DNA of 64,000 bases from Escherichia coli (GTDB lineage Bacteria > Pseudomonadota > Gammaproteobacteria > Enterobacterales > Enterobacteriaceae). The position numbers and the translations under genes are program-made. A model generated the notes under the pieces. It ran no database searches. It was not told where the DNA came from and was given only the letters and a program-made list of their open reading frames with translations. The DNA is taken from NCBI GenBank assembly GCA_002099625.1, contig GCA_002099625.1_4857.1, one strand, 5' to 3'. Numbering within the stretch: position 1 is the stretch's first letter; the number at the start of each line of letters is the position of its first letter. Positions 21,134 through 54,140 of the stretch are shown here, one piece after another.

Positions 21134-21664
21134 TTAGAGATAGTGTTCCACTATCACTTCTAACTCGCGGAAGATATGTGCGGTTTGATTAAACAGCGTA
21201 TCCTGTTCGGGTGTTTGTTTATCAAATGCACGCTGATACAGTTCTAACATAGCGAAGACTGTGCGCAGTTTATCGCGCGCGACTTCAGGATCGGATGCAC
21301 CGAAATAATGATCAAGCCATCGTGGTTCTGAACTCTCTCCTTTTCTATCGATTGCCTCAGGCAACTCTAACCAACGTTGATTGGGAATGTTGCTACTGGA
21401 TACACGGTTATACTCAGAAATGAAGAATTCCAATCGCTCCACCAACGTGTCAAAATCTCGAATACGTAATTCGAGTTGTCCACGCAATGAAAAAGGAAGG
21501 TATTCTTTCCCATTATATTCCAGAGGCTCTGTAATGAGTTCTAAGCCCACCATCACTCTGTGCAGGGTGTTATGGGTATTCTTATGAAACTCAGCCTCCA
21601 AAGAGCGTCTGCGAGCTTCTATAGCCTTACGACGCAGGAGTGTTGAAAGCCATTTAAAAAGCAT
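21134..21664 (-). CDS. Hypothetical protein (176 aa)
   Basis: ORF whose upstream region carries the TAGATAATATCT near-palindrome. Confidence 0.5.
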   Translation of the reverse strand: MLFKWLSTLLRRKAIEARRRSLEAEFHKNTHNTLHRVMVGLELITEPLEYNGKEYLPFSLRGQLELRIRDFDTLVERLEFFISEYNRVSSSNIPNQRWLELPEAIDRKGESSEPRWLDHYFGASDPEVARDKLRTVFAMLELYQRAFDKQTPEQDTLFNQTAHIFRELEVIVEHYL

Positions 21665-25378: not shown

Positions 25379-25678
25379 TTAGCGTTTTTTCAGTGGGAGT
25401 AACAGACGACGTTTATGCCAAACTTCGAAATGCACTTCTGCCCACTCGGTGACTTGGTTGTCATCCTTAGGATTGATGTTAGAAATGCTTTTGAAGCGGT
25501 TACGGTTACGTTCGTCGATTTCGATTTCCAGAACGCGTTGACCATCAGCACGTGTGGTCACGTTCAGGATTTTACCAACCACGATCGGACTACCATCGGT
25601 ATTCTTCTTCGTCGGGGTGGTGTAAATCTCAGGTTCGATACGAGAGGTTAAAGCGCGAGTCAGTAATTTGATTCTCAT
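25379..25678 (-). CDS. Hypothetical protein (99 aa)
   Basis: ORF in array. Confidence 0.45.
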   Translation of the reverse strand: MRIKLLTRALTSRIEPEIYTTPTKKNTDGSPIVVGKILNVTTRADGQRVLEIEIDERNRNRFKSISNINPKDDNQVTEWAEVHFEVWHKRRLLLPLKKR

Positions 25679-28493: not shown

Positions 28494-29228
28494 TCAGTAG
28501 TTTAGTTTCTCAGCGACTTCTTTACGGATGCGACACATCACCACCATCGCACCATTCGGAATTTGGCTCACGCAGTTATCCGTGTAAAACTTACCTCCAC
28601 ACAGATAAAAGTCCAGACACATGGCATCGGTCAGCTCGTGCCACAGGGTGCCGAAACCATACTGCCAAGGACCGGAATGAATGACATCGTAATCGCCTTC
28701 AGTTATGCCAAATGCGGCAGTAGCGGAAGACCACAATGTTGAGGAGGTGGTATAAGTGTCATACCAGTAACCGAGCAGACGATGGTTACGACGTATCTCA
28801 GCTAACCGCTCGTACATTGGGATGAATACATCTTCCACCTGCGTGACAAAATCAGCCAGCATCAACTTTTCCGTGAACCACTCGATCCACGCAAAGATTT
28901 GTTCTTCAACGTCTTGTTGGCTTAACCCCGTGGCAGTAATGCCTTCTTCGTAGGTGTAACCTTCGTAGACGTCAACAACATTAATCTCTACATGTTCTAG
29001 CGTGAACAACCGTTCGGTGTTGATGCAGTCGTACATCTCTTGTAACCACGCAGTGAAGACTTCTATACAGACGTTGATGGCTGTGTACTTGAATTCATCG
29101 CGCAGTGGATACCACTGTGGGTTATCCTTTAGTTCGTTCTTCGCGAACGCGGGCCAATGCTTTTCGAACAACGCTTCAAAGAACTGGGGCGTGAGGTTTA
29201 AAAGCACTGGCACTTCGACTTTAAGCAT
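28494..29228 (-). CDS. Hypothetical protein (244 aa)
   Basis: ORF; the TAGATAATATCTA near-palindrome lies about 35 nt upstream of its start. Confidence 0.55.
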   Translation of the reverse strand: MLKVEVPVLLNLTPQFFEALFEKHWPAFAKNELKDNPQWYPLRDEFKYTAINVCIEVFTAWLQEMYDCINTERLFTLEHVEINVVDVYEGYTYEEGITATGLSQQDVEEQIFAWIEWFTEKLMLADFVTQVEDVFIPMYERLAEIRRNHRLLGYWYDTYTTSSTLWSSATAAFGITEGDYDVIHSGPWQYGFGTLWHELTDAMCLDFYLCGGKFYTDNCVSQIPNGAMVVMCRIRKEVAEKLNY

Positions 29229-36952: not shown

Positions 36953-37546
36953 TTACGCTTCGGCCTCAAAGAACGGCTGGTTCGGTACCACTGCATATTC
37001 GAGCACGAAAAGATGTTCTGGGGCATCTTCTGCTCGCCACAGTTTGTGGCACGTTGCCAGTTTTTCCAGGATGGTCAACCAGCTGAGCTGGCAGAAAGCA
37101 CGATCGCCGAAGAACAGTTTCTGCAGTGCAATCGACACATCCATATACGCCTGTTTGAAGTCGAGTTCTTTATCGTAACCCGCCGACTGTCGCCACGTCA
37201 GCACGAAGCCTGCTTCGGTTTCGTTAATTGCTGGACGTAAACCACAAATCCACATCAGCGCCAGATTAACGTTCCAGTCGAATTCGATACCTTCGTCTTC
37301 GTCATCACCAAACGCCGCGTTTAACGCGTCGTAGAAACCGTGGTTCTCTGCGAACCATTCGCCGTACTCAACGTAGACAGGTGCTTCGACAGCTTCCCCA
37401 TCGGCTTCACCGATAGGACGCTCAACGTAGTTCGGATTGGTTTGAACGTGTTCCGCACCCGCGCGAATCAGTTCGTAAACGTCTTTGGCGGTGATTTGTG
37501 CGGCTGTTTTAAGACCTGGATACCAGGGGCGTGTTACGAGTGTCAA
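36953..37546 (-). CDS. Hypothetical protein (197 aa)
   Basis: ORF; 4-nt overlap with the upstream SLT gene. Confidence 0.5.
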   Translation of the reverse strand: MTLVTRPWYPGLKTAAQITAKDVYELIRAGAEHVQTNPNYVERPIGEADGEAVEAPVYVEYGEWFAENHGFYDALNAAFGDDEDEGIEFDWNVNLALMWICGLRPAINETEAGFVLTWRQSAGYDKELDFKQAYMDVSIALQKLFFGDRAFCQLSWLTILEKLATCHKLWRAEDAPEHLFVLEYAVVPNQPFFEAEA

Positions 37547-38265
37547 AGCAATGCTCCTTTCATGATAGTGTTATTTGCCAGTAATGTACCGGCCGCAGGT
37601 GATATTTTGGTGTACAGCGTATCCCAGATTTTCTGAAGTTCGGCGACGCGTTGGTCGTGGTCTTCCTTCGCAAAAGCAAGCTGACGTGTTTCAGCTTTCG
37701 GTGGTGTCATTTTCGCACCGTAGAATGCTGCGTCTTTTCGGTAGCTGGCCATCCAGCGTTTCCCGACCGGTGATTTCTTTTTAATCATCGCAACAGCAGC
37801 ACCCTCACCGAAGCGGTAGCCTAAAGCGATTTCGGCTGTGCTCGGCTTGCGTTTGAGTTGTTTTGTCAGATGATCCTCGATGTGTTTCATGTAAACGGCA
37901 GCAAGCTGTACAGCATACTTCGGTTTATTAAGGTCCGCATTCTTTGGGATGTTAAGTTGTTTCCCATACAGACGTATCATGGAGCGTTTAGTGCCTGTCG
38001 TCATTTGGACAACACTACTAGCACTGCTCGATTTATTCTTACCCACGTTTTTATTAAAACGGGATTCACGATAAATGGTGGTCGCGAGCATCCCGGCATG
38101 TACGCCTTGTTTTCGAGATGCGGTGACGATGAGAGGTTTAATCTCATTGAACTGGTCCTGGATAAGGACGAATTCTTTTTGGTGTTTGTTACTGGTGGTC
38201 TGGTAAGAAGCGTTGCTGTTGAACGTAGTCATTGCTACCAGAAGAAATAAAATGGTGCGAAACAT
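37543..38265 (-). CDS. Secreted SLT-domain lytic transglycosylase (240 aa); endolysin candidate
   Basis: N-terminal signal peptide (MFRTILFLLVAMTTFNSNA) and SLT motifs TIYRESRFN ... VVQMTTGT. Confidence 0.6.
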   Translation of the reverse strand: MFRTILFLLVAMTTFNSNASYQTTSNKHQKEFVLIQDQFNEIKPLIVTASRKQGVHAGMLATTIYRESRFNKNVGKNKSSSASSVVQMTTGTKRSMIRLYGKQLNIPKNADLNKPKYAVQLAAVYMKHIEDHLTKQLKRKPSTAEIALGYRFGEGAAVAMIKKKSPVGKRWMASYRKDAAFYGAKMTPPKAETRQLAFAKEDHDQRVAELQKIWDTLYTKISPAAGTLLANNTIMKGALL

Positions 38266-40422: not shown

Positions 40423-40701
40423 TCAGCAACGTCGTTGAAAACGTCGCGATGCTGAGGTAACCTTCCGTCGCCACATTCGCTCATGGCGCTTCTGATTACC
40501 ACGCCAGTCTTCCCCGACTGTGCGTGAAACTGCAAAATCGTCCGGCCCGCAGACTTCCGCGATGTCTGCTAGAAGGTTCTTTGAAGACCCTATAGCCATC
40601 CCCACGCTCGAAAGAACGATACGCCGGGTTGGCTCGGCCGCCCCTGAACCCACGACCACGGGATCAGAGACTGTTTCACTGTCACATGATACTTCTCCCA
40701 C
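40423..40701 (-). CDS. Hypothetical protein (92 aa)
   Basis: ORF with GTG start and GGAGGG RBS, downstream of the micro-gene string. Confidence 0.35.
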   Translation of the reverse strand: MGEVSCDSETVSDPVVVGSGAAEPTRRIVLSSVGMAIGSSKNLLADIAEVCGPDDFAVSRTVGEDWRGNQKRHERMWRRKVTSASRRFQRRC

Positions 40702-40719
40702 TTCGTAATTACCCTCCTG

Positions 40720-40827
40720 TTAAAACCAACCTTGCGTCAATGCAAGGATTGCGCCTAGGGCGTATGCGCCTGCTCCTAGTACCAGGCTACAGATGATACA
40801 CCCAACCCACTTCACTAAAATAACCAT
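40720..40827 (-). CDS. Micro-protein P5 (35 aa), single TM helix
   Basis: MVILVKWVGCIICSLVLGAGAYALGAILALTQGWF; its ATG overlaps the 3-prime end of P4. Confidence 0.4.
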   Translation of the reverse strand: MVILVKWVGCIICSLVLGAGAYALGAILALTQGWF

Positions 40828-40946
40828 GATGCCAGAAATGCTCCGATTGCACAGATGATAATCGTAATGCCAAGGTCTGTCCAGGTGGTACCATCATACG
40901 CACCTGTTGCAATCATGGCTGCGTTGACACTATTCACGACTGTCAT
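40815..40946 (-). CDS. Micro-protein P4 (43 aa), single TM helix
   Basis: MTVVNSVNAAMIATGAYDGTTWTDLGITIIICAIGAFLASWLF; its start overlaps the P3 stop region. Confidence 0.4.
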   Translation of the reverse strand: MTVVNSVNAAMIATGAYDGTTWTDLGITIIICAIGAFLASWLF

Positions 40947-41133
40947 AAGCCGGGTCCCTTAAACGCGGGGGCTTGCTCCACAGATTACCGAAGTAAACCC
41001 CTTCTAAGAACACCAAAACAACTAAGCCCCAGAAGGCAGGCGTGGCACGAGACAAGAAAATGCCCATCAGCACTACAGTGTGCATTACCACAACTGCCCA
41101 AAACTTTAAACGACCCGGTTTACGTGTTGCCAT
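40930..41133 (-). CDS. Small membrane protein P3 (about 67 aa), two hydrophobic segments
   Basis: MATRKPGRLKFWAVVVMHTVVLMGIFL...GLVVLVFLEGVYFG; start re-picked at the first ATG, overlapping the P2 3-prime end. Confidence 0.4.
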   Translation of the reverse strand: MATRKPGRLKFWAVVVMHTVVLMGIFLSRATPAFWGLVVLVFLEGVYFGNLWSKPPRLRDPAYDSRE

Positions 41134-41224
41134 GGAATGCCCATCCTTTCGTGCGGATAATCCAACCCCAGGCACCACGAATCAACCACAGTGCGATACC
41201 GGTTAGTACGATACCTTCAATCAT
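41120..41224 (-). CDS. Micro-protein P2 (34 aa), single TM helix
   Basis: MIEGIVLTGIALWLIRGAWGWIIRTKGWAFHGNT; its ATG overlaps the P1 stop as ATGA. Confidence 0.4.
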   Translation of the reverse strand: MIEGIVLTGIALWLIRGAWGWIIRTKGWAFHGNT

Positions 41225-51220: not shown

Positions 51221-51380
51221 GGTACTGCACTCCTCGTTAGGTTAAAAGTCAAGGTCAACTACAAAAAGGATGTCGGTATCCTACGGATACCTCCGTTTAT
51301 GTTCGCATCCAATACATAAACCCCCTTACCCCCGTACTCTCCTCGATTGTCAAACGATGAGATCGAAACGTAAAAAAGTG

Positions 51381-51390
51381 TAGTATGAGA
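51381..51390 (+). promoter_or_regulatory. TAGTATGA element upstream of a plus-strand gene (candidate promoter core)
   Basis: TAGTATGAGA 11-20 nt upstream of ATG 51401; similar element at 54101..54110 and a TATTATGAG variant at 21675..21684. Confidence 0.3.
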
Positions 51391-51400
51391 GGAGGGTGGT

Positions 51401-52333
51401 ATGAATAAATCTAAGTCAGGGTTGCACATCTTCTCGATAGGTATCGTCGCGGAAGATAAACCTCGTGGTGCCACTCGAGTTAAAGTCATCCCTATCGAAG
51501 TTAACTTTATTAATCCTACAGCTGTCGATGCAACAGAGACACCTGTAGAGAAGCAACACAACAGTTTAAGTGGTACTGACAACCTTACTGTAAAGCAAGG
51601 TAATGCCATCACTGCAAAATGGATGAAGTCCAACAGCAACCGGGTTAACCCTCCGGATGTGAAAAAAGAAGACTACGTAAGAATCTGGCGTATCGGTGAA
51701 ACCGATATGTACTTCTGGGAAGATTTAAACAACAGTAACGTTAAGCGACTGGAAGATGGGGTATACGCCTGGTCTGCTGACCCAGTAAACCAGATGGCCG
51801 ATGACCTCTCTAACGCCTACGTACTGAATATCTCCCCGATGGATGGTCACGTTACTTTACGTACCAGTATGACTAACGGTGAGAAAAATGCGTATTTGCT
51901 CCAGCTGAATACCCGTGATGGGTTTTGCCAGTTAGTGGATGACGAAGGGCGTAAGTTCTACCTCAATTCTCCGGAGGATGACTTAGGGTTTGAAAACGCC
52001 TGCCGGTCGAAGATTAATATCAATAAAGAGGACGCTTTCATTTATGCTAAACGTTCTATTAATCTCGAGACAAAGACGATTAACGAGAAGTGCGAAACTC
52101 GCAACTCTACAGCGTCGAAAAACATGGCATGGACGACTGAAGACTGGAAGACCACATGCCCAACGAATCTATTTACCGGTAACCTGGAAGTAGGTAAGAA
52201 TTTCCTCTATAACGGCAAGGGTGAGGGTAAGGGCACATTCACAGTTACCGAATCGGTTATCGGCGGCATCACCTTTACTCTTCACGTACATACTGGCCAT
52301 GGTCCGGGCAACGACACCAGTACACCGCACTAA
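51401..52333 (+). CDS. Hypothetical protein (310 aa)
   Basis: ORF with GAGGAGGG RBS; TAGTATGA motif 11-20 nt upstream. Confidence 0.55.
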   Translation: MNKSKSGLHIFSIGIVAEDKPRGATRVKVIPIEVNFINPTAVDATETPVEKQHNSLSGTDNLTVKQGNAITAKWMKSNSNRVNPPDVKKEDYVRIWRIGETDMYFWEDLNNSNVKRLEDGVYAWSADPVNQMADDLSNAYVLNISPMDGHVTLRTSMTNGEKNAYLLQLNTRDGFCQLVDDEGRKFYLNSPEDDLGFENACRSKININKEDAFIYAKRSINLETKTINEKCETRNSTASKNMAWTTEDWKTTCPTNLFTGNLEVGKNFLYNGKGEGKGTFTVTESVIGGITFTLHVHTGHGPGNDTSTPH

Positions 52334-52372
52334 GTTATTTACGTGTGTGGGGTATAATGTGACAATAAACCC

Positions 52373-52424
52373 CTAACTGTAACGATAACCCGAATCGCTT
52401 GTGCACAGTTAGCCACTTTTTTCG
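52373..52424 (+). terminator. Possible long-loop hairpin terminator after 51401..52333
   Basis: Inverted repeat CTAACTGT / ACAGTTAG (52373..52380 and 52405..52412) followed by TTTTTT. Confidence 0.3.
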
Positions 52425-52540
52425 CACAAAAGCCGGTTTATTGTCAACTAATTTACGAGTCGGGGCAGTTAATATGCCTCGAAGTACAAGTAGTTGAACA
52501 TAGGGTTCTTCTGCTATCATTTGTTAATGGAGATAAGTAA

Positions 52541-52750
52541 ATGAGCATTCGTGAAATCACCGCAGGCAGCGACGTTTCTGGTCTGGTAGAAGCAGGCACC
52601 GTTCAGGTTTCTGGACTGAGCACCGTTACCGAAGTTACCGAAGCGCTGGCTAAGAAAGCCGAAGCTGAAGGCGGCGTAGCATTTAAAGTTACCGCTTGCG
52701 GCGGCAACAACAAAATGTTCGGCAACGCCATCTATTACATAAACGCGTAA
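52541..52750 (+). CDS. DUF1471 (YhcN/BhsA/McbA-family)-like small protein without signal peptide (69 aa)
   Basis: GTVQVSGLSTVTEVTEALAKKAEAEGGVAFKVTACGGNNKMFGNAIYY matches the enterobacterial BhsA/YdgH pattern GTIS..G....LEE.LA.KA.E.GA..F.IT...G.N..HGTA.IYK (recalled from memory). GGAGA RBS; an in-frame stop immediately upstream excludes a signal peptide. Confidence 0.55.
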   Translation: MSIREITAGSDVSGLVEAGTVQVSGLSTVTEVTEALAKKAEAEGGVAFKVTACGGNNKMFGNAIYYINA

Positions 52751-52761
52751 TCGGCCTGCGG

Positions 52762-52820
52762 GCAAAAAAGATATAGGTACCCTACTCCCGTTGGGAGTAG
52801 GGTTTACCTTTTATTTTTTT
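52762..52820. terminator. Bidirectional intrinsic terminator
   Basis: A-run, stem TACCCTACTCCC / GGGAGTAGGGT (52778..52804), 9-T run. Confidence 0.6.
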
Positions 52821-54073
52821 CGTGCTTTGTAGCGATGCATTTCAACAAATGGCTTACCCCAAGCCCCGAAAGGCCCGACGATTGCCTGCGCGTCGTTTAC
52901 CAAATTCTGGTTATACCAACGCGCGTTCCCCAACAAAAAGTTTTCCCGGTCGAAGAATGTGGTATTAAAGACCCACTCCCCTTCTTCCCAGGTCGGCCAG
53001 TACCCTACACATTTACCAATACGGTTAAAGATAGGACCTAGCGTCTTCTTCCCATCTGGGTCAGTCGGGTCTTTTAAATAGAACCGGCCCCAGATAGCGT
53101 TGTGGCTTATTCCGTGAATCTCTTTTTCGAGATACGGGTTGTCTATCGTAAAGATAAACGAGGATTCGTGCGTCAGCAACGCTTTTAACGTTTCTGAGTT
53201 ACGAATACGTTGAACGGACGTAGGCGTACTTAAATCACCTACACCGATGGCGTCCCAATCGTAATAGCGACGGGTTTCCAATACAATCTTCGCCACGCTA
53301 AGGTTTGGCAGACTCAGCATAATCGCACGGTCGCTGAAATAGCCCTGCGGTGGCAACCAATGCAGAATACCCCCGATGACGAACCCAACGGTTTTCCCTG
53401 TAATGGAATCGGGTAAGGTCAGCATTAACGAAGAATAGTAATCTCGCGTAGTATCGAGTTTGTTCATCGTTAAACTGGATATGGGGTAGGTCTTTACTTT
53501 ACCGATATTTGCCATCACCAGACAGCCAATGTCTGGCGTATTGGCACGCCGCACGATATTACCAGCGCCGGTTAAGCGAACGCCCACTGGGTCAGATTGG
53601 TGAGGTACCCACTGGCCATTGATGTTGTACAGCACCCCAGTACGGTATTTCTCTTTCCACTCATCGTCGCAGACTACAACAACGTCGTGTGCATCATCGG
53701 GATTGAAGTCCTGAGTGTAATGGTACCCAGGAGGGCACAGGTGCGTTTCTACGGGCACATCTGCATTAATAGACTGGTAGTGTGCCTCAACGAATTCGAG
53801 CTTCGGTAGGCCCTTCCCAAGCGTTGGAATCGCGATTCCTGACTTGGTGTTTAACCAATCTTGCAACGTGTCCGTACGGTTTTGTAAATCAGCCAGGTGA
53901 TACTGGCTATAGAAGGTATATTCAGCACCTAGTGCTTCTAGTCCTACTTCGAAAAAGTGGTAGTTAGCACAAAGGGTATTTAAGGGCTGCGTGACATCGA
54001 TGGTTCCCCAAGTTCGGGTGTCTCGAGAGAAGCCAAAAGCGCTGTCGGCCCGCACTTGATAAGCAGTAGTCAC
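52811..54073 (-). CDS. Hypothetical protein (420 aa)
   Basis: ORF between a bidirectional terminator and the plus-strand structural block. Confidence 0.55.
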   Translation of the reverse strand: MTTAYQVRADSAFGFSRDTRTWGTIDVTQPLNTLCANYHFFEVGLEALGAEYTFYSQYHLADLQNRTDTLQDWLNTKSGIAIPTLGKGLPKLEFVEAHYQSINADVPVETHLCPPGYHYTQDFNPDDAHDVVVVCDDEWKEKYRTGVLYNINGQWVPHQSDPVGVRLTGAGNIVRRANTPDIGCLVMANIGKVKTYPISSLTMNKLDTTRDYYSSLMLTLPDSITGKTVGFVIGGILHWLPPQGYFSDRAIMLSLPNLSVAKIVLETRRYYDWDAIGVGDLSTPTSVQRIRNSETLKALLTHESSFIFTIDNPYLEKEIHGISHNAIWGRFYLKDPTDPDGKKTLGPIFNRIGKCVGYWPTWEEGEWVFNTTFFDRENFLLGNARWYNQNLVNDAQAIVGPFGAWGKPFVEMHRYKARKK

Positions 54074-54100
54074 TGGCTGTTTCCTCTAAGGATTCGGGTC

Positions 54101-54110
54101 ATAGTATGAA
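54101..54110 (+). promoter_or_regulatory. TAGTATGA element upstream of the 1237-aa gene
   Basis: ATAGTATGAA about 30 nt upstream of ATG 54141. Confidence 0.3.
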
Positions 54111-54140
54111 CTCGACGCCCTCAGAGAAAAGGAGTGTAAA

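What the first reader, a model, noticed from the sequence alone, without database searches (positions are those of the whole stretch)
52334..52750. Host-like DUF1471 (BhsA/YdgH-family) gene lacking a signal peptide, behind a 200-nt structured leader
The 69-aa product matches the enterobacterial DUF1471 stress-protein pattern almost position by position, but starts directly at the conserved domain with an in-frame stop just upstream, so it would be cytoplasmic, unlike the secreted host proteins. The 207-nt non-coding region before it holds an 8-bp inverted repeat with a T-run and a TATAAT hexamer. It looks like a host-derived gene repurposed by the phage.
Basis: partly seen in the sequence, partly recalled or inferred. 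Interest (0 to 1): 0.6.

Follow-up and report, generated by a model that had tools for sequence, protein, structure and literature searches.

The report
Signal-less DUF1471 protein of jumbo phage
A giant Salmonella phage carries an old, stripped-down copy of a small bacterial cell-envelope stress protein that has lost its export signal, is built for very high expression and turns up in phage particles; the gene was already annotated, but its role is unknown.

Summary
Window 52541-52750 (+) encodes a 69-aa protein that passes Pfam PF07338 (DUF1471/YdgH-BhsA-McbA). It folds like the solved DUF1471 structures and starts at the mature domain, with a TAA directly upstream and no signal peptide. The window is an SPN3US-like jumbo phage, and the gene is SPN3US gp172. 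RefSeq already labels it DUF1471. A 2017 proteome study reported it as the smallest (7 kDa) virion protein.

It is not a recent host capture. About 60 related jumbo phages carry a signal-less copy, always between the spike-like gp173 and the baseplate protein gp171. The copies are under purifying selection and only 42-55% identical to any bacterial relative.

Two things are new here. Its codon bias is top-tier, level with the major capsid protein, the nuclear-shell protein and gp53, which predicts very high expression. It also sits behind two phiKZ-middle-type promoter motifs (TTTAC-N15-TRTG).

The "structured leader" is not supported as such: fold z-scores are -0.5 to -1.7 and there is no Rfam hit. 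The TATAAT is part of a phage promoter motif, not a sigma-70 promoter. The leader does hold a small covarying 5'UTR hairpin and a conserved unexplained box.

Function remains inferred. Interest is moderate: a new variant of a known family.

The parts
51401..52333 (+). Upstream neighbour: SPN3US gp173 homologue, a spike-like baseplate assembly protein (distantly P2 gpV-like). Context, not part of the gene.
   Evidence: PHROG 3216 'baseplate assembly protein', E = 2e-122. Weak TIGR01644 phage_P2_V match. Non-head virion protein in PMC5694885.
52338..52361 (+). Promoter-like motif A, TTTACGTGTGTGGGGTATAATGTG (TTTAC-N15-TGTG).
   Evidence: The motif follows the gp173 stop in all relatives. The same motif class is strongly enriched in intergenic DNA and always points at a gene. 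It resembles the phiKZ middle promoter: TTAC near -24, sometimes with TATG ending at +1 (PMC4666361).
52373..52412 (+).
   Evidence: It is not conserved in related phages, which carry other hairpins at this place.
52395..52423 (+). Conserved non-coding box, TCGCTTG...GCCACTTTTTTC. It includes the T6 run at 52417-22. Function unexplained.
   Evidence: Retained in 13 of 16 aligned related loci, although the flanking proteins are only 50-65% identical. The exact 12-mer is unique in the window and in the SPN3US genome. It is not coding on either strand (inspection).
52452..52476 (+). Promoter-like motif B, TTTACGAGTCGGGGCAGTTAATATG. The predicted start is the G at 52476, giving a 65-nt 5'UTR.
   Evidence: The TATGC is conserved at this place in all relatives, directly after a terminator in most of them. 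It belongs to the motif class enriched in intergenic DNA. TATG with G as the start site is the phiKZ non-virion RNA polymerase signature (PMC4666361, PMC5312081).
52496..52508 (+). Small conserved 5'UTR stem-loop: GAAC-ATAGG-GTTC.
   Evidence: RNAalifold predicts it independently. 81% of cells pair, against at most 51% when the partners are slid. Three pairs show compensatory changes, and 0 of 500 shuffles reach the observed score. It is present in the minimum-energy and centroid folds of the window UTR.
52529..52533 (+). Shine-Dalgarno GGAGA, 7 nt before the ATG. An in-frame TAA lies at 52538-52540.
   Evidence: An equivalent GGAG/GAGG precedes the start in every homologue.
52541..52750 (+). 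CDS of the 69-aa signal-less DUF1471-fold protein (SPN3US gp172 / SPN3US_0172 / ACQ60_gp094).
   Evidence: Virion mass spectrometry in PMC5694885.
52779..52820 (.). Strong hairpin (11 pairs) flanked by T/A runs. It is a shared terminator for the convergent gp172 (+) and gp171 (-).
   Evidence: Conserved in relatives.
52811..54073 (-). Downstream convergent neighbour: gp171 homologue, an essential tail-associated baseplate/fibre protein. Context.
   Evidence: PMC5105663. PHROG 3337. Synteny.

Best explanation
**What is shown**
The gene is SPN3US gp172. It is a real, conserved gene under purifying selection and encodes a 69-aa DUF1471-fold protein (beta-alpha-beta-beta).

The protein corresponds to the mature part of the small periplasmic BhsA/McbA/YbiJ-type proteins of Enterobacterales, and it has no export signal.

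It was taken from an enterobacterial host once, long ago. It is now a fixed, clade-specific gene of the SPN3US/phiEaH2/Machina/Wellington/CR5 group of nucleus-forming jumbo phages, wedged between the spike-like gp173 and the baseplate protein gp171.

It forms its own expression cassette. The cassette has two tandem phage promoter motifs of the phiKZ middle type, a 65-nt 5'UTR with a small conserved hairpin, a strong ribosome-binding site and a dedicated strong terminator. Its codon bias is as extreme as that of the major capsid protein, the nuclear-shell protein and the main inner-body protein.

**What is inferred**
1. The protein is made in bulk in the cytoplasm from mid-infection.
2. Only a small part, of the order of ten to a few tens of copies, ends up on the tail or neck side of the virion.
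3. It acts as a soluble binding or adaptor module at the tail/host-envelope interface. The most likely roles are helping the clade-specific baseplate/fibre apparatus to assemble, or binding an enterobacterial envelope component when the particle or the lysate meets a cell.
4. It does not act as a secreted stress protein.
For: **Identity**
- Pfam PF07338, 43.5 bits against a cut-off of 27.
- AlphaFold model with pLDDT 81. Its six best PDB matches are all solved DUF1471 domains, TM 0.65-0.76.
- NCBIfam profiles align only from their position ~29 onward, that is, to the mature part.

**No signal peptide**
- A stop codon lies directly upstream in the window.
- All 18 phage copies start at the same Met behind a Shine-Dalgarno and lack a hydrophobic N-terminus. 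By the same crude test, 50 of 59 bacterial relatives have one.
- A canonical secreted query matches phages only from its residue 28 onward.

**Old, clade-wide and syntenic**
- 17 IMG/VR jumbo-phage contigs and 60 GenBank phage records carry it, always between gp173 and gp171 homologues.
- Chimalliviruses whose gp171 homologue is 29% identical or less lack it.
- No bacterial relative is closer than 42-55% identity.
- dN/dS is 0.08-0.25.
- A tandem second signal-less paralogue exists in Wellington-type phages.

**High expression (inferred)**
- Fop is 0.81, second of 256 ORFs in SPN3US.
- After correction for amino-acid composition the excess is +0.25, fourth of 255 ORFs. It sits beside the major capsid protein gp75, gp22 and gp53. 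gp22 is taken to be chimallin, "gp244" in PMC9365700; that mapping is my inference.
- The bias is kept in all 17 homologues even though synonymous sites are saturated.

**Promoter class**
- TTTAC-N15-TRTG occurs 27 times in SPN3US. Eighteen of these are intergenic and point at a gene: the script flagged 16, and I added by hand the two in the gp172 leader, which it masked under a spurious ORF.
- The 14 annotated genes that follow the motif elsewhere are all non-virion genes.
- The phiKZ middle-promoter description matches it.

**Virion association**
- PMC5694885 reports 4 unique peptides, 81% coverage and a mass-adjusted spectral count of 0.86. That is close to the portal (0.93; 12 copies).
- The protein is not flagged as a head protein. 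Its neighbours gp167-173 are all non-head virion proteins.
Against: - No experiment addresses function.
- The virion signal is only 6 spectra. It was lost in 47(am1) particles, and the authors themselves call its status unresolved. It could be an abundant cytoplasmic protein sticking to particles.
- Top-tier codon bias fits poorly with a low-copy structural role.
- A middle-type promoter shared only with non-virion genes points away from a classical structural protein.
- Codon bias is an indirect proxy measured on 67 codons.
- The promoter assignment rests on motif enrichment and analogy with phiKZ, not on mapped transcript ends.
- Monophyly of the phage copies has only 25% bootstrap support on 52 columns. 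Single acquisition rests mainly on synteny.
Confidence: 0.55

Rival explanations
1. True tail, baseplate or neck component delivered to the host envelope. gp172 is assembled onto the particle next to the spike. Because virions assemble in the cytoplasm it needs no signal peptide. At infection it is placed at or in the outer membrane or periplasm, where host DUF1471 proteins normally act, and it binds an enterobacteria-specific envelope ligand.
For: - Detected in purified virions and not among head proteins.
- Fixed position between the spike and baseplate genes.
- The family is restricted to Enterobacterales, and the gene is restricted to a phage clade infecting them (PMC4092069).
- The SrfN DUF1471 dimer binds sulfated polysaccharides, and the fold resembles the envelope sensor RcsF (PMC4092069).
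Against: - Only 6 spectra, and absent from 47(am1) particles.
- Codon bias predicts far more protein than a low-copy tail part needs.
- The promoter class is shared only with non-virion genes.
- The protein is mildly acidic, unlike the positive binding face of SrfN (sequence inspection).
Confidence: 0.25
2. Abundant non-structural cytoplasmic effector, for host takeover or anti-defence. Its presence in virion preparations is adventitious, and its place in the baseplate module is a historical accident of where a moron landed.
For: - Top-tier codon bias.
- Middle-type promoters, otherwise found only before non-virion genes such as thymidylate kinase, an SbcC-like protein, an endonuclease and a regulator.
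- Own promoter and terminator, like an autonomous cassette.
- Faster divergence than its neighbours: 43-50% identity against 60-80%.
- Locus plasticity, shown by the tandem paralogue and extra ORFs in the Wellington type.
Against: - Other very abundant non-virion proteins (gp22, gp252) were not reported in the virion proteome, so generic carry-over is not obvious.
- No known cytoplasmic partner or activity exists for this fold.
- Strict synteny across the clade.
Confidence: 0.25
3. The 207-nt region is a cis-acting structured leader (riboswitch or attenuator) that controls gp172.
For: - The long intergenic region is conserved in length class, 199-440 nt, in all relatives.
- It holds a conserved box and covarying hairpins. 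Most relatives carry a promoter-hairpin-box-terminator-promoter arrangement that could act as an attenuator.
- A small covarying 5'UTR hairpin is present.
Against: - In the window the fold energies are not significant: z = -1.69, -1.50 and -0.46.
- No Rfam family matches in the window or in five related loci.
- The terminator hairpin of the relatives is missing in the SPN3US type.
- The 8-bp repeat is not conserved.
- A second promoter motif lies downstream of the would-be attenuator, so gp172 can be expressed regardless of it.
Confidence: 0.15
4. Mis-annotated or decaying gene: the real protein has an upstream start with a signal peptide, or the ORF is a dead remnant of a recently captured host gene.
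For: None beyond the general rule that DUF1471 proteins are secreted (PMC4092069).
Against: - A TAA lies directly upstream.
- No homologue has an upstream start or a hydrophobic N-terminus.
- dN/dS is 0.08-0.25.
- The published 81% peptide coverage equals exactly the tryptic peptides from residue 5 to the C-terminus minus VTACGGNNK (my calculation).
- The protein was detected by mass spectrometry.
Confidence: 0.02

Closest known systems
Enterobacterial DUF1471 / YhcN-BhsA-McbA family (PF07338): BhsA/YcfR, McbA/YbiM, YbiJ, YahO, SrfN, YdgH
   Same: - Same domain, with a Pfam score above the gathering threshold.
- Same predicted beta-alpha-beta-beta fold (TM 0.65-0.76 to SrfN, YdgH-C, STM1478-N and YahO).
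- Same size as the mature host proteins.
- Same conserved core positions (G-x-V-S-x-x-G ... L-x-x-x-A ... G-x-x-A ... G-x-N ... G-x-A-x-x-Y).
- Associated with Enterobacterales.
   Different: - No Sec signal peptide in any phage copy.
- Encoded by lytic jumbo phages inside a tail/baseplate module.
- Reaches no NCBIfam equivalog cut-off (best is McbA, 41 bits against 110; BhsA, 39 against 90).
- Only 42-55% identical to the nearest bacterial cluster.
- Detected in virions.
- Extreme codon bias.
Phage-borne 'BhsA'/DUF1471 annotations in relatives (Erwinia phages Stratton, Kwan, Wellington and pEa_SNUABM_43; Salmonella phage SPAsTU; RefSeq SPN3US ACQ60_gp094)
   Same: These are orthologues of this gene at the same locus. 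The window gene is 98.6% identical to SPN3US gp172.
   Different: Those records only carry a name transferred by similarity. The label 'multiple stress resistance protein BhsA' is not justified, because the equivalog cut-off is not met and there is no signal peptide.
phiKZ middle promoters (AAanTTACc centred near -24, sometimes with TATG at +1) and late TATG promoters of the non-virion RNA polymerase
   Same: TTAC lies about 19-22 nt upstream of a T(A/G)TG whose G would be the start. The spacing is fixed. The motif is intergenic, gene-proximal and placed in front of non-structural genes.
   Different: - Different phage genus.
- Not mapped experimentally here.
- A T-rich rather than A-rich stretch precedes TTAC.
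- Two copies lie in tandem in this leader.
Signal-less phage proteins that reach the envelope without Sec (canonical endolysins through holin holes; virion-borne tail proteins)
   Same: This is an analogy of mechanism only. A protein whose relatives act outside the cytoplasm is made without a signal peptide, and it can meet the envelope only through the particle or at lysis.
   Different: There is no homology, and no evidence that gp172 acts in the envelope.

Membership tests
DUF1471 / YdgH-BhsA-McbA-like (PF07338) | Sequence match to the family profile above the curated threshold | tested here: met
   43.5 bits against a cut-off of 27, E = 3.3e-11, profile positions 2-54 of 55. Relatives score 29.7-68 bits.
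DUF1471 / YdgH-BhsA-McbA-like (PF07338) | Mixed alpha+beta fold of the solved members (SrfN, YahO, YdgH domains) | tested here: met
   AlphaFold model with pLDDT 81 and a beta-alpha-beta-beta order. The six best PDB matches (2ma8, 4evu, 2m2j, 2jna, 2noc, 2ma4) are all DUF1471 domains, TM 0.65-0.76. This rests on a predicted structure, not a solved one.
DUF1471 / YdgH-BhsA-McbA-like (PF07338) | N-terminal Sec signal peptide and periplasmic location ('most' members, PMC4092069) | tested here: not met
   A TAA lies directly upstream of the start. No phage copy (0 of 18) has a hydrophobic N-terminus, against 50 of 59 bacterial relatives by the same crude test. No dedicated signal-peptide predictor was available.
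DUF1471 / YdgH-BhsA-McbA-like (PF07338) | Occurrence restricted to Enterobacteriaceae genomes (PMC4092069) | tested here: inconclusive
   The gene is encoded by phages, not bacteria. All carrier phages infect Enterobacterales: Salmonella, Escherichia, Erwinia, Cronobacter and Proteus.
BhsA / McbA / YbiJ / YhcN / YahO / BsmA (named host paralogues, NCBIfam equivalogs) | Score above the equivalog cut-off of one paralogue | tested here: not met
   McbA 41 against 110, BhsA 39.3 against 90, YbiJ 29.7 against 110, YhcN 22.6 against 125, YahO 19 against 90, BsmA 13.6 against 100.
BhsA / McbA / YbiJ / YhcN / YahO / BsmA (named host paralogues, NCBIfam equivalogs) | Stress-induced expression and an envelope phenotype | not testable with these tools
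   Needs experiments.
SPN3US virion proteins | Detected by mass spectrometry in purified particles | not tested
   Taken from the literature (PMC5694885): 4 unique peptides, 6 spectra, 81% coverage. The authors say its status needs further work.
phiKZ-type middle promoter | TTAC element about 20-24 nt upstream of the start, optionally TATG ending at +1 | tested here: met
   Motifs at 52338-61 and 52452-76. The class is enriched in intergenic DNA: 6 of 8 occurrences in the window, and 18 of 27 in SPN3US (16 flagged by the script plus the two in the gp172 leader added by hand), against about 11% intergenic sequence. The definition comes from PMC4666361. This is a sequence match only.
phiKZ-type middle promoter | Transcripts that start there in mid-infection | not testable with these tools
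   No SPN3US transcript-end data were found.
Structured cis-regulatory leader / known RNA family | Match to an Rfam model, or folding clearly better than shuffled sequence | tested here: not met
   No Rfam match at E <= 1. z = -1.69, -1.50 and -0.46. Only one 4-5-bp hairpin shows covariation.

The most novel reading that the evidence does not exclude
gp172 is one of the most abundant proteins of the infection. It is an envelope-protein mimic that meets the cell envelope by a non-Sec route, either carried on the tail next to the spike or released in bulk at lysis.

In that reading it manipulates an Enterobacterales-specific envelope pathway. The obvious candidate is the Rcs/colanic-acid circuit: the DUF1471 fold is closest to the sensor RcsF, and the best NCBIfam hit is the colanic-acid regulator McbA. 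The effect would be to keep cells or neighbours adsorbable.

Separately, the DNA upstream of gp172 may encode a clade-conserved small RNA or attenuator: promoter A, hairpin, the GCCACTTTTTTC box, then a terminator in relatives.
Probability: 0.1. Interest if true: 0.75.

Novelty: new variant of a known kind. Interest (0 to 1): 0.4.

Why it matters
DUF1471 proteins are described as secreted and exclusive to Enterobacteriaceae, and their biochemical function is still unknown. This is a phage lineage of the family that has lost export. It has been kept by about 60 jumbo phages at one fixed place beside the tail spike, and its codon bias matches that of the major capsid protein.

That makes it a natural experiment: whatever the fold binds must matter to the phage. 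For jumbo-phage biology it flags an unstudied, probably very abundant protein. It also provides a candidate middle-promoter consensus for SPN3US-like phages (TTTAC-N15-TRTG), and both are directly testable.

It also corrects a misleading database label, 'multiple stress resistance protein BhsA'.

The finding is not a new kind of system. The gene and its domain were already annotated, and the protein had already been seen in virions.

Tried and rejected
- **Sigma-70 promoter at the TATAAT.** The scan found no promoter. The -35 region matches 2 of 6 by inspection. The hexamer is not conserved in relatives. phiKZ-like phages transcribe without host RNA polymerase (PMC4666361).
- **Intrinsic terminator from the 8-bp repeat plus T-run.** The loop is 24 nt, the stem is AT-rich, and the repeat is not conserved.
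- **Known RNA family.** None in the window leader or in five related loci. No tRNA or tmRNA.
- **Small ORF in the leader.** The minus-strand 61-aa ORF and the plus-strand 32-aa ORF are not conserved. Relatives have stops and indels that are not multiples of three.
- **Recent host capture.** The word-indexed search found only phage-type 61-70-aa proteins. The exhaustive profile search found no close bacterial relative.
- **Sequence search of the PDB.** Only weak hits, E = 0.4-0.7. The fold search was needed.
- **Literature on function.**
  - No paper links DUF1471 or BhsA with jumbo phages.
  - The SPN3US infection proteome paper (PMC6384053) is not held.
  - Other SPN3US papers do not mention gp172.
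  - One broad search was wasted.
- **Identifying gp22 as chimallin by sequence.** PHROGs gives no function and the PDB sequence search has no hit. The link rests on PMC9365700 ('gp244') plus my mapping of the reversed RefSeq numbering.
- **Phylogeny.** The phage copies are monophyletic in a neighbour-joining tree, but with only 25% bootstrap support.
- **Conserved box as a repeated genomic signal.** It is unique in the genome.
Full report
**1. What the window is and what sits at the coordinates**

The region 51400-54100 is 98.7% identical to Salmonella phage SPN3US and to about 25 sister phages. SPN3US is a 240-kb nucleus-forming jumbo phage of the genus Seoulvirus.

The ORF at 52541-52750 (+) encodes 69 aa. 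It is SPN3US gene SPN3US_0172, or gp172. The RefSeq copy, ACQ60_gp094, is already named "DUF1471 domain-containing protein".

Upstream lies gp173, a spike-like "baseplate assembly protein" with a weak P2 gpV match. Downstream, and convergent, lies gp171. Published genetics classes gp171 as an essential tail-associated baseplate/fibre protein (PMC5105663).

**2. Check of the observation**

- Pfam PF07338 scores 43.5 bits against a cut-off of 27 (E = 3.3e-11), over profile positions 2-54 of 55.
- An in-frame TAA sits at 52538-40, directly before the ATG. GGAGA lies 7 nt upstream of the ATG.
- The non-coding stretch is 207 nt.
- TATAAT is at 52353-58.
- The 8-bp inverted repeat is at 52373-80 / 52405-12, and its 3' arm lies 4 nt before a T6 run.

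An AlphaFold model (pLDDT 81) is beta-alpha-beta-beta. Its best PDB matches are all solved DUF1471 domains: SrfN, YdgH-C, STM1478-N, STM0082, StR106 and YahO, with TM 0.65-0.76.

NCBIfam profiles of McbA, BhsA and YbiJ align only from their position ~29 onward. The phage protein therefore equals the mature host protein. No equivalog cut-off is approached.

**3. Not a recent capture: an old, clade-wide, signal-less lineage**

- The word-indexed protein search returned only 61-70-aa phage-type proteins.
- An exhaustive profile search of 1.84 billion representatives gave 71 hits. The best were other signal-less 68-78-aa proteins. After them came ordinary 83-88-aa secreted proteins at E = 1e-10 to 1e-4.
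- The nearest bacterial clusters come from Salmonella, Phytobacter/Kluyvera/Citrobacter, Serratia and Yersinia. They are annotated as BhsA or DUF1471 and are 42-55% identical over 45-57 residues.
- Seventeen IMG/VR contigs of 107-248 kb carry a homologue (15 of them are 220 kb or longer). In every one it lies between the gp173 and gp171 homologues.
- Every copy starts at the equivalent Met behind a Shine-Dalgarno, with stops upstream and no hydrophobic N-terminus.
- In GenBank phages the gene is present in 60 records. All belong to the SPN3US, phiEaH2, Machina, Wellington or CR5 types.
- A canonical secreted query finds only these phages, and only from its residue 28 onward.
- gp171 homologues at 46% identity or more occur in the same ~60 records. 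More distant chimalliviruses (29% or less) have no DUF1471. These include Goslar, 201phi2-1 and the Klebsiella and Serratia jumbo phages.
- dN/dS is 0.08-0.25 for the pairs whose synonymous sites are not saturated.
- The phage copies are monophyletic in a neighbour-joining tree, but with only 25% bootstrap support. The case for a single acquisition therefore rests mainly on synteny.
- Wellington-type phages carry a second, tandem, signal-less paralogue of 186 aa with an acidic disordered tail.

**4. Expression signals**

*Codon bias.* gp172 has the highest fraction of enterobacterial optimal codons among the 63 window genes: 0.81, against a mean of 0.53 and SD of 0.07. In the whole SPN3US genome it ranks second of 256 ORFs, just behind the major capsid protein.

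After correcting for amino-acid composition the excess is +0.25, fourth of 255 ORFs. The others at the top are the capsid protein gp75, gp53 and gp22.

- gp53 is present at more than 600 copies per head (PMC5694885).
- gp22 I take to be the chimallin homologue called "gp244" in PMC9365700. That step is my inference. The RefSeq tags run in reverse order, so the RefSeq and GenBank numbers add up to 266.

The bias is kept in all 17 homologues, at 0.64-0.82 against backgrounds of 0.48-0.56, even though synonymous sites are saturated between them. That argues for ongoing selection for efficient translation. High expression remains an inference, not a measurement.

*Promoters.* The sigma-70 scan finds nothing. 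Two copies of TTTAC-N15-T(A/G)TG lie in the leader, at 52338-61 and 52452-76. The first contains the TATAAT.

This motif occurs 8 times in the window, and 6 of those are intergenic. It occurs 27 times in SPN3US. The script flagged 16 of these as intergenic. The two in the gp172 leader were masked by a spurious ORF call and are added by hand, giving 18. Only about 11% of the sequence is intergenic. Each of the 16 script-flagged sites outside the leader lies on the strand of a gene that starts 17-99 nt downstream, or of a tRNA.

The 14 annotated genes that follow it elsewhere are gp1, 4, 65, 76, 99, 100, 101, 104, 110, 125, 186, 206, 215 and 227. None of them is in the 86-protein virion list.

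In phiKZ, middle promoters carry AAanTTACc centred near -24, and some also have the TATG whose G is the start site (PMC4666361; PMC5312081). I therefore read both motifs as middle-type phage promoters. That reading is an inference.

A strong hairpin at 52779-52803, flanked by T/A runs, ends the unit.

**5. The "structured leader"**

In the window the 207 nt fold no better than shuffled sequence in any convincing way. The whole region gives z = -1.69, and the two halves give -1.50 and -0.46. No Rfam family matches in the window or in five related loci.

Comparison of 16 loci shows a conserved layout:

1. Motif A, directly after the gp173 stop.
2. A hairpin whose sequence varies between loci.
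3. The box TCGCTTG...GCCACTTTTTTC. It is unique in the window and in the SPN3US genome.
4. In most relatives, a GC-rich terminator.
5. Motif B.
6. A 48-72-nt 5'UTR.

One small 5'UTR hairpin (window 52496-52508, GAAC-ATAGG-GTTC) is predicted independently by RNAalifold. It has compensatory changes at three pairs. 81% of cells pair, against at most 51% when the partners are slid, and 0 of 500 shuffles reach the observed score.

The region is therefore regulatory and partly conserved. It is not a demonstrable structured leader, and the box is unexplained.

**6. What the literature adds**

DUF1471 is described as exclusive to Enterobacteriaceae and mostly signal-bearing and periplasmic. The family has about twelve paralogue subfamilies, and its fold is closest to RcsF. 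SrfN forms dimers that bind sulfated polysaccharides (PMC4092069).

gp172 was detected in CsCl-purified SPN3US virions. It is 7 kDa and "the smallest SPN3US virion protein", with 4 unique peptides, 6 spectra, 81% coverage and a mass-adjusted spectral count of 0.86. The portal scores 0.93 and the neighbours gp170 and gp171 score 1.0 and 0.74. gp172 is not flagged as a head protein. It was missing from 47(am1) particles, and the authors call its status unresolved (PMC5694885).

The 81% coverage equals exactly the tryptic peptides from residue 5 to the C-terminus minus VTACGGNNK. That is my calculation, and it fits the annotated start.

No paper in the library links DUF1471 or BhsA with jumbo phages.

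**7. How it most likely works**

*Shown:*
- A conserved, selected, signal-less DUF1471-fold protein.
- A self-contained cassette at a fixed place in the tail module.
- A protein product that exists and co-purifies with virions.

*Inferred:*
- Bulk synthesis in the cytoplasm from mid-infection.
- A minor fraction on the tail or neck side of the particle.

The gene exists only in the clade that infects Enterobacterales, while its neighbours are shared with phiKZ-like phages of other hosts. It therefore more likely serves a host-specific or clade-specific interface than the universal baseplate architecture.

My ranking of specific mechanisms:

| Mechanism | Probability |
|---|---|
| Abundant soluble adaptor or assembly helper for the clade's baseplate/fibre apparatus, a little of which stays on the particle | ~0.35 |
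| Virion-borne envelope-binding part | ~0.25 |
| Purely cytoplasmic takeover or anti-defence effector with adventitious virion carry-over | ~0.25 |
| Other | ~0.15 |

None of these is tested.

**8. Comparison, novelty and verdict**

By sequence and fold the protein is a member of PF07338, but it fails the family's usual export feature and every named-paralogue test. The labels "BhsA" and "multiple stress resistance protein" in some phage records are unjustified.

The gene, its domain and its presence in virions were already on record. New here are:
- the clade-wide loss of the signal peptide;
- the age and fixed position of the gene;
- the top-tier codon bias;
- the middle-type promoter assignment;
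- the conserved non-coding elements.

I rate it a new variant of a known kind, of moderate interest (0.4).

Noticed in passing
window 52338-52361 and 52452-52476; also 43968-43945 (-), 32306-32283 (-), 25730-25707 (-), 17038-17015 (-): A candidate promoter consensus for SPN3US-like phages, TTTAC(G/A)-N14-T(A/G)TG, often placed directly after a terminator T-run. It occurs 27 times in SPN3US. Eighteen are intergenic and gene-proximal (16 flagged by the script, plus the two in the gp172 leader added by hand). They precede only non-virion genes apart from gp172. The motif resembles the phiKZ middle promoter.
   Followed up: partly
window 52361-52451; L006 5763-5945; L012 5805-5925; L007 5730-5870: Between gp173 and gp172, relatives carry promoter motif A, a covarying hairpin, the box GCCACTTTTTTC and a strong terminator, spanning 105-200 nt. 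The region folds with z = -3 to -4. It could be a small RNA gene or an attenuator. The SPN3US type has lost the terminator. There is no Rfam match.
   Followed up: partly
L008 (Erwinia phage Wellington) 6242-6802 (+); the same arrangement in L007 and L011: A second, tandem, signal-less DUF1471 paralogue of 186 aa with a long acidic, low-complexity C-terminal tail lies directly downstream of the gp172 homologue. A 52-aa ORF (L008 5570-5728) lies upstream of the leader.
   Followed up: partly
window, upstream of genes 21134-21664 (-) and 28494-29228 (-): A shared AT-rich, near-palindromic motif, GA(C/T)AGATATTATCTA(C/T), appears in two upstream regions. A related ATATTATCA lies before 37543-38265 (-). 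It looks like the extended AT-rich early (virion RNA polymerase) promoters described for phiKZ-like phages (PMC5312081).
   Followed up: no
SPN3US record 224924-225412 (gp252), 40674-41174 (gp43), 187636-187935 (gp215 = window 25379-25678): Several small proteins of unknown function that are not in the virion proteome rank among the most codon-biased genes of the genome. They are probably very abundant and uncharacterised. PHROGs gives no function.
   Followed up: no
protein cluster of P0014: CR5-type gp172 homologues are deposited as 'DUF1471 domain-containing protein [Salmonella enterica]' on contigs of about 224 kb. Jumbo-phage genomes are therefore present in many Salmonella isolate assemblies and are labelled as bacterial.
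   Followed up: no
window 51221-51400 and 54074-54140: The virion genes gp173 and gp170 are preceded by TAGTATG about 14-35 nt before their starts, without the upstream TTTAC element. This may be the late-promoter form.
   Followed up: no
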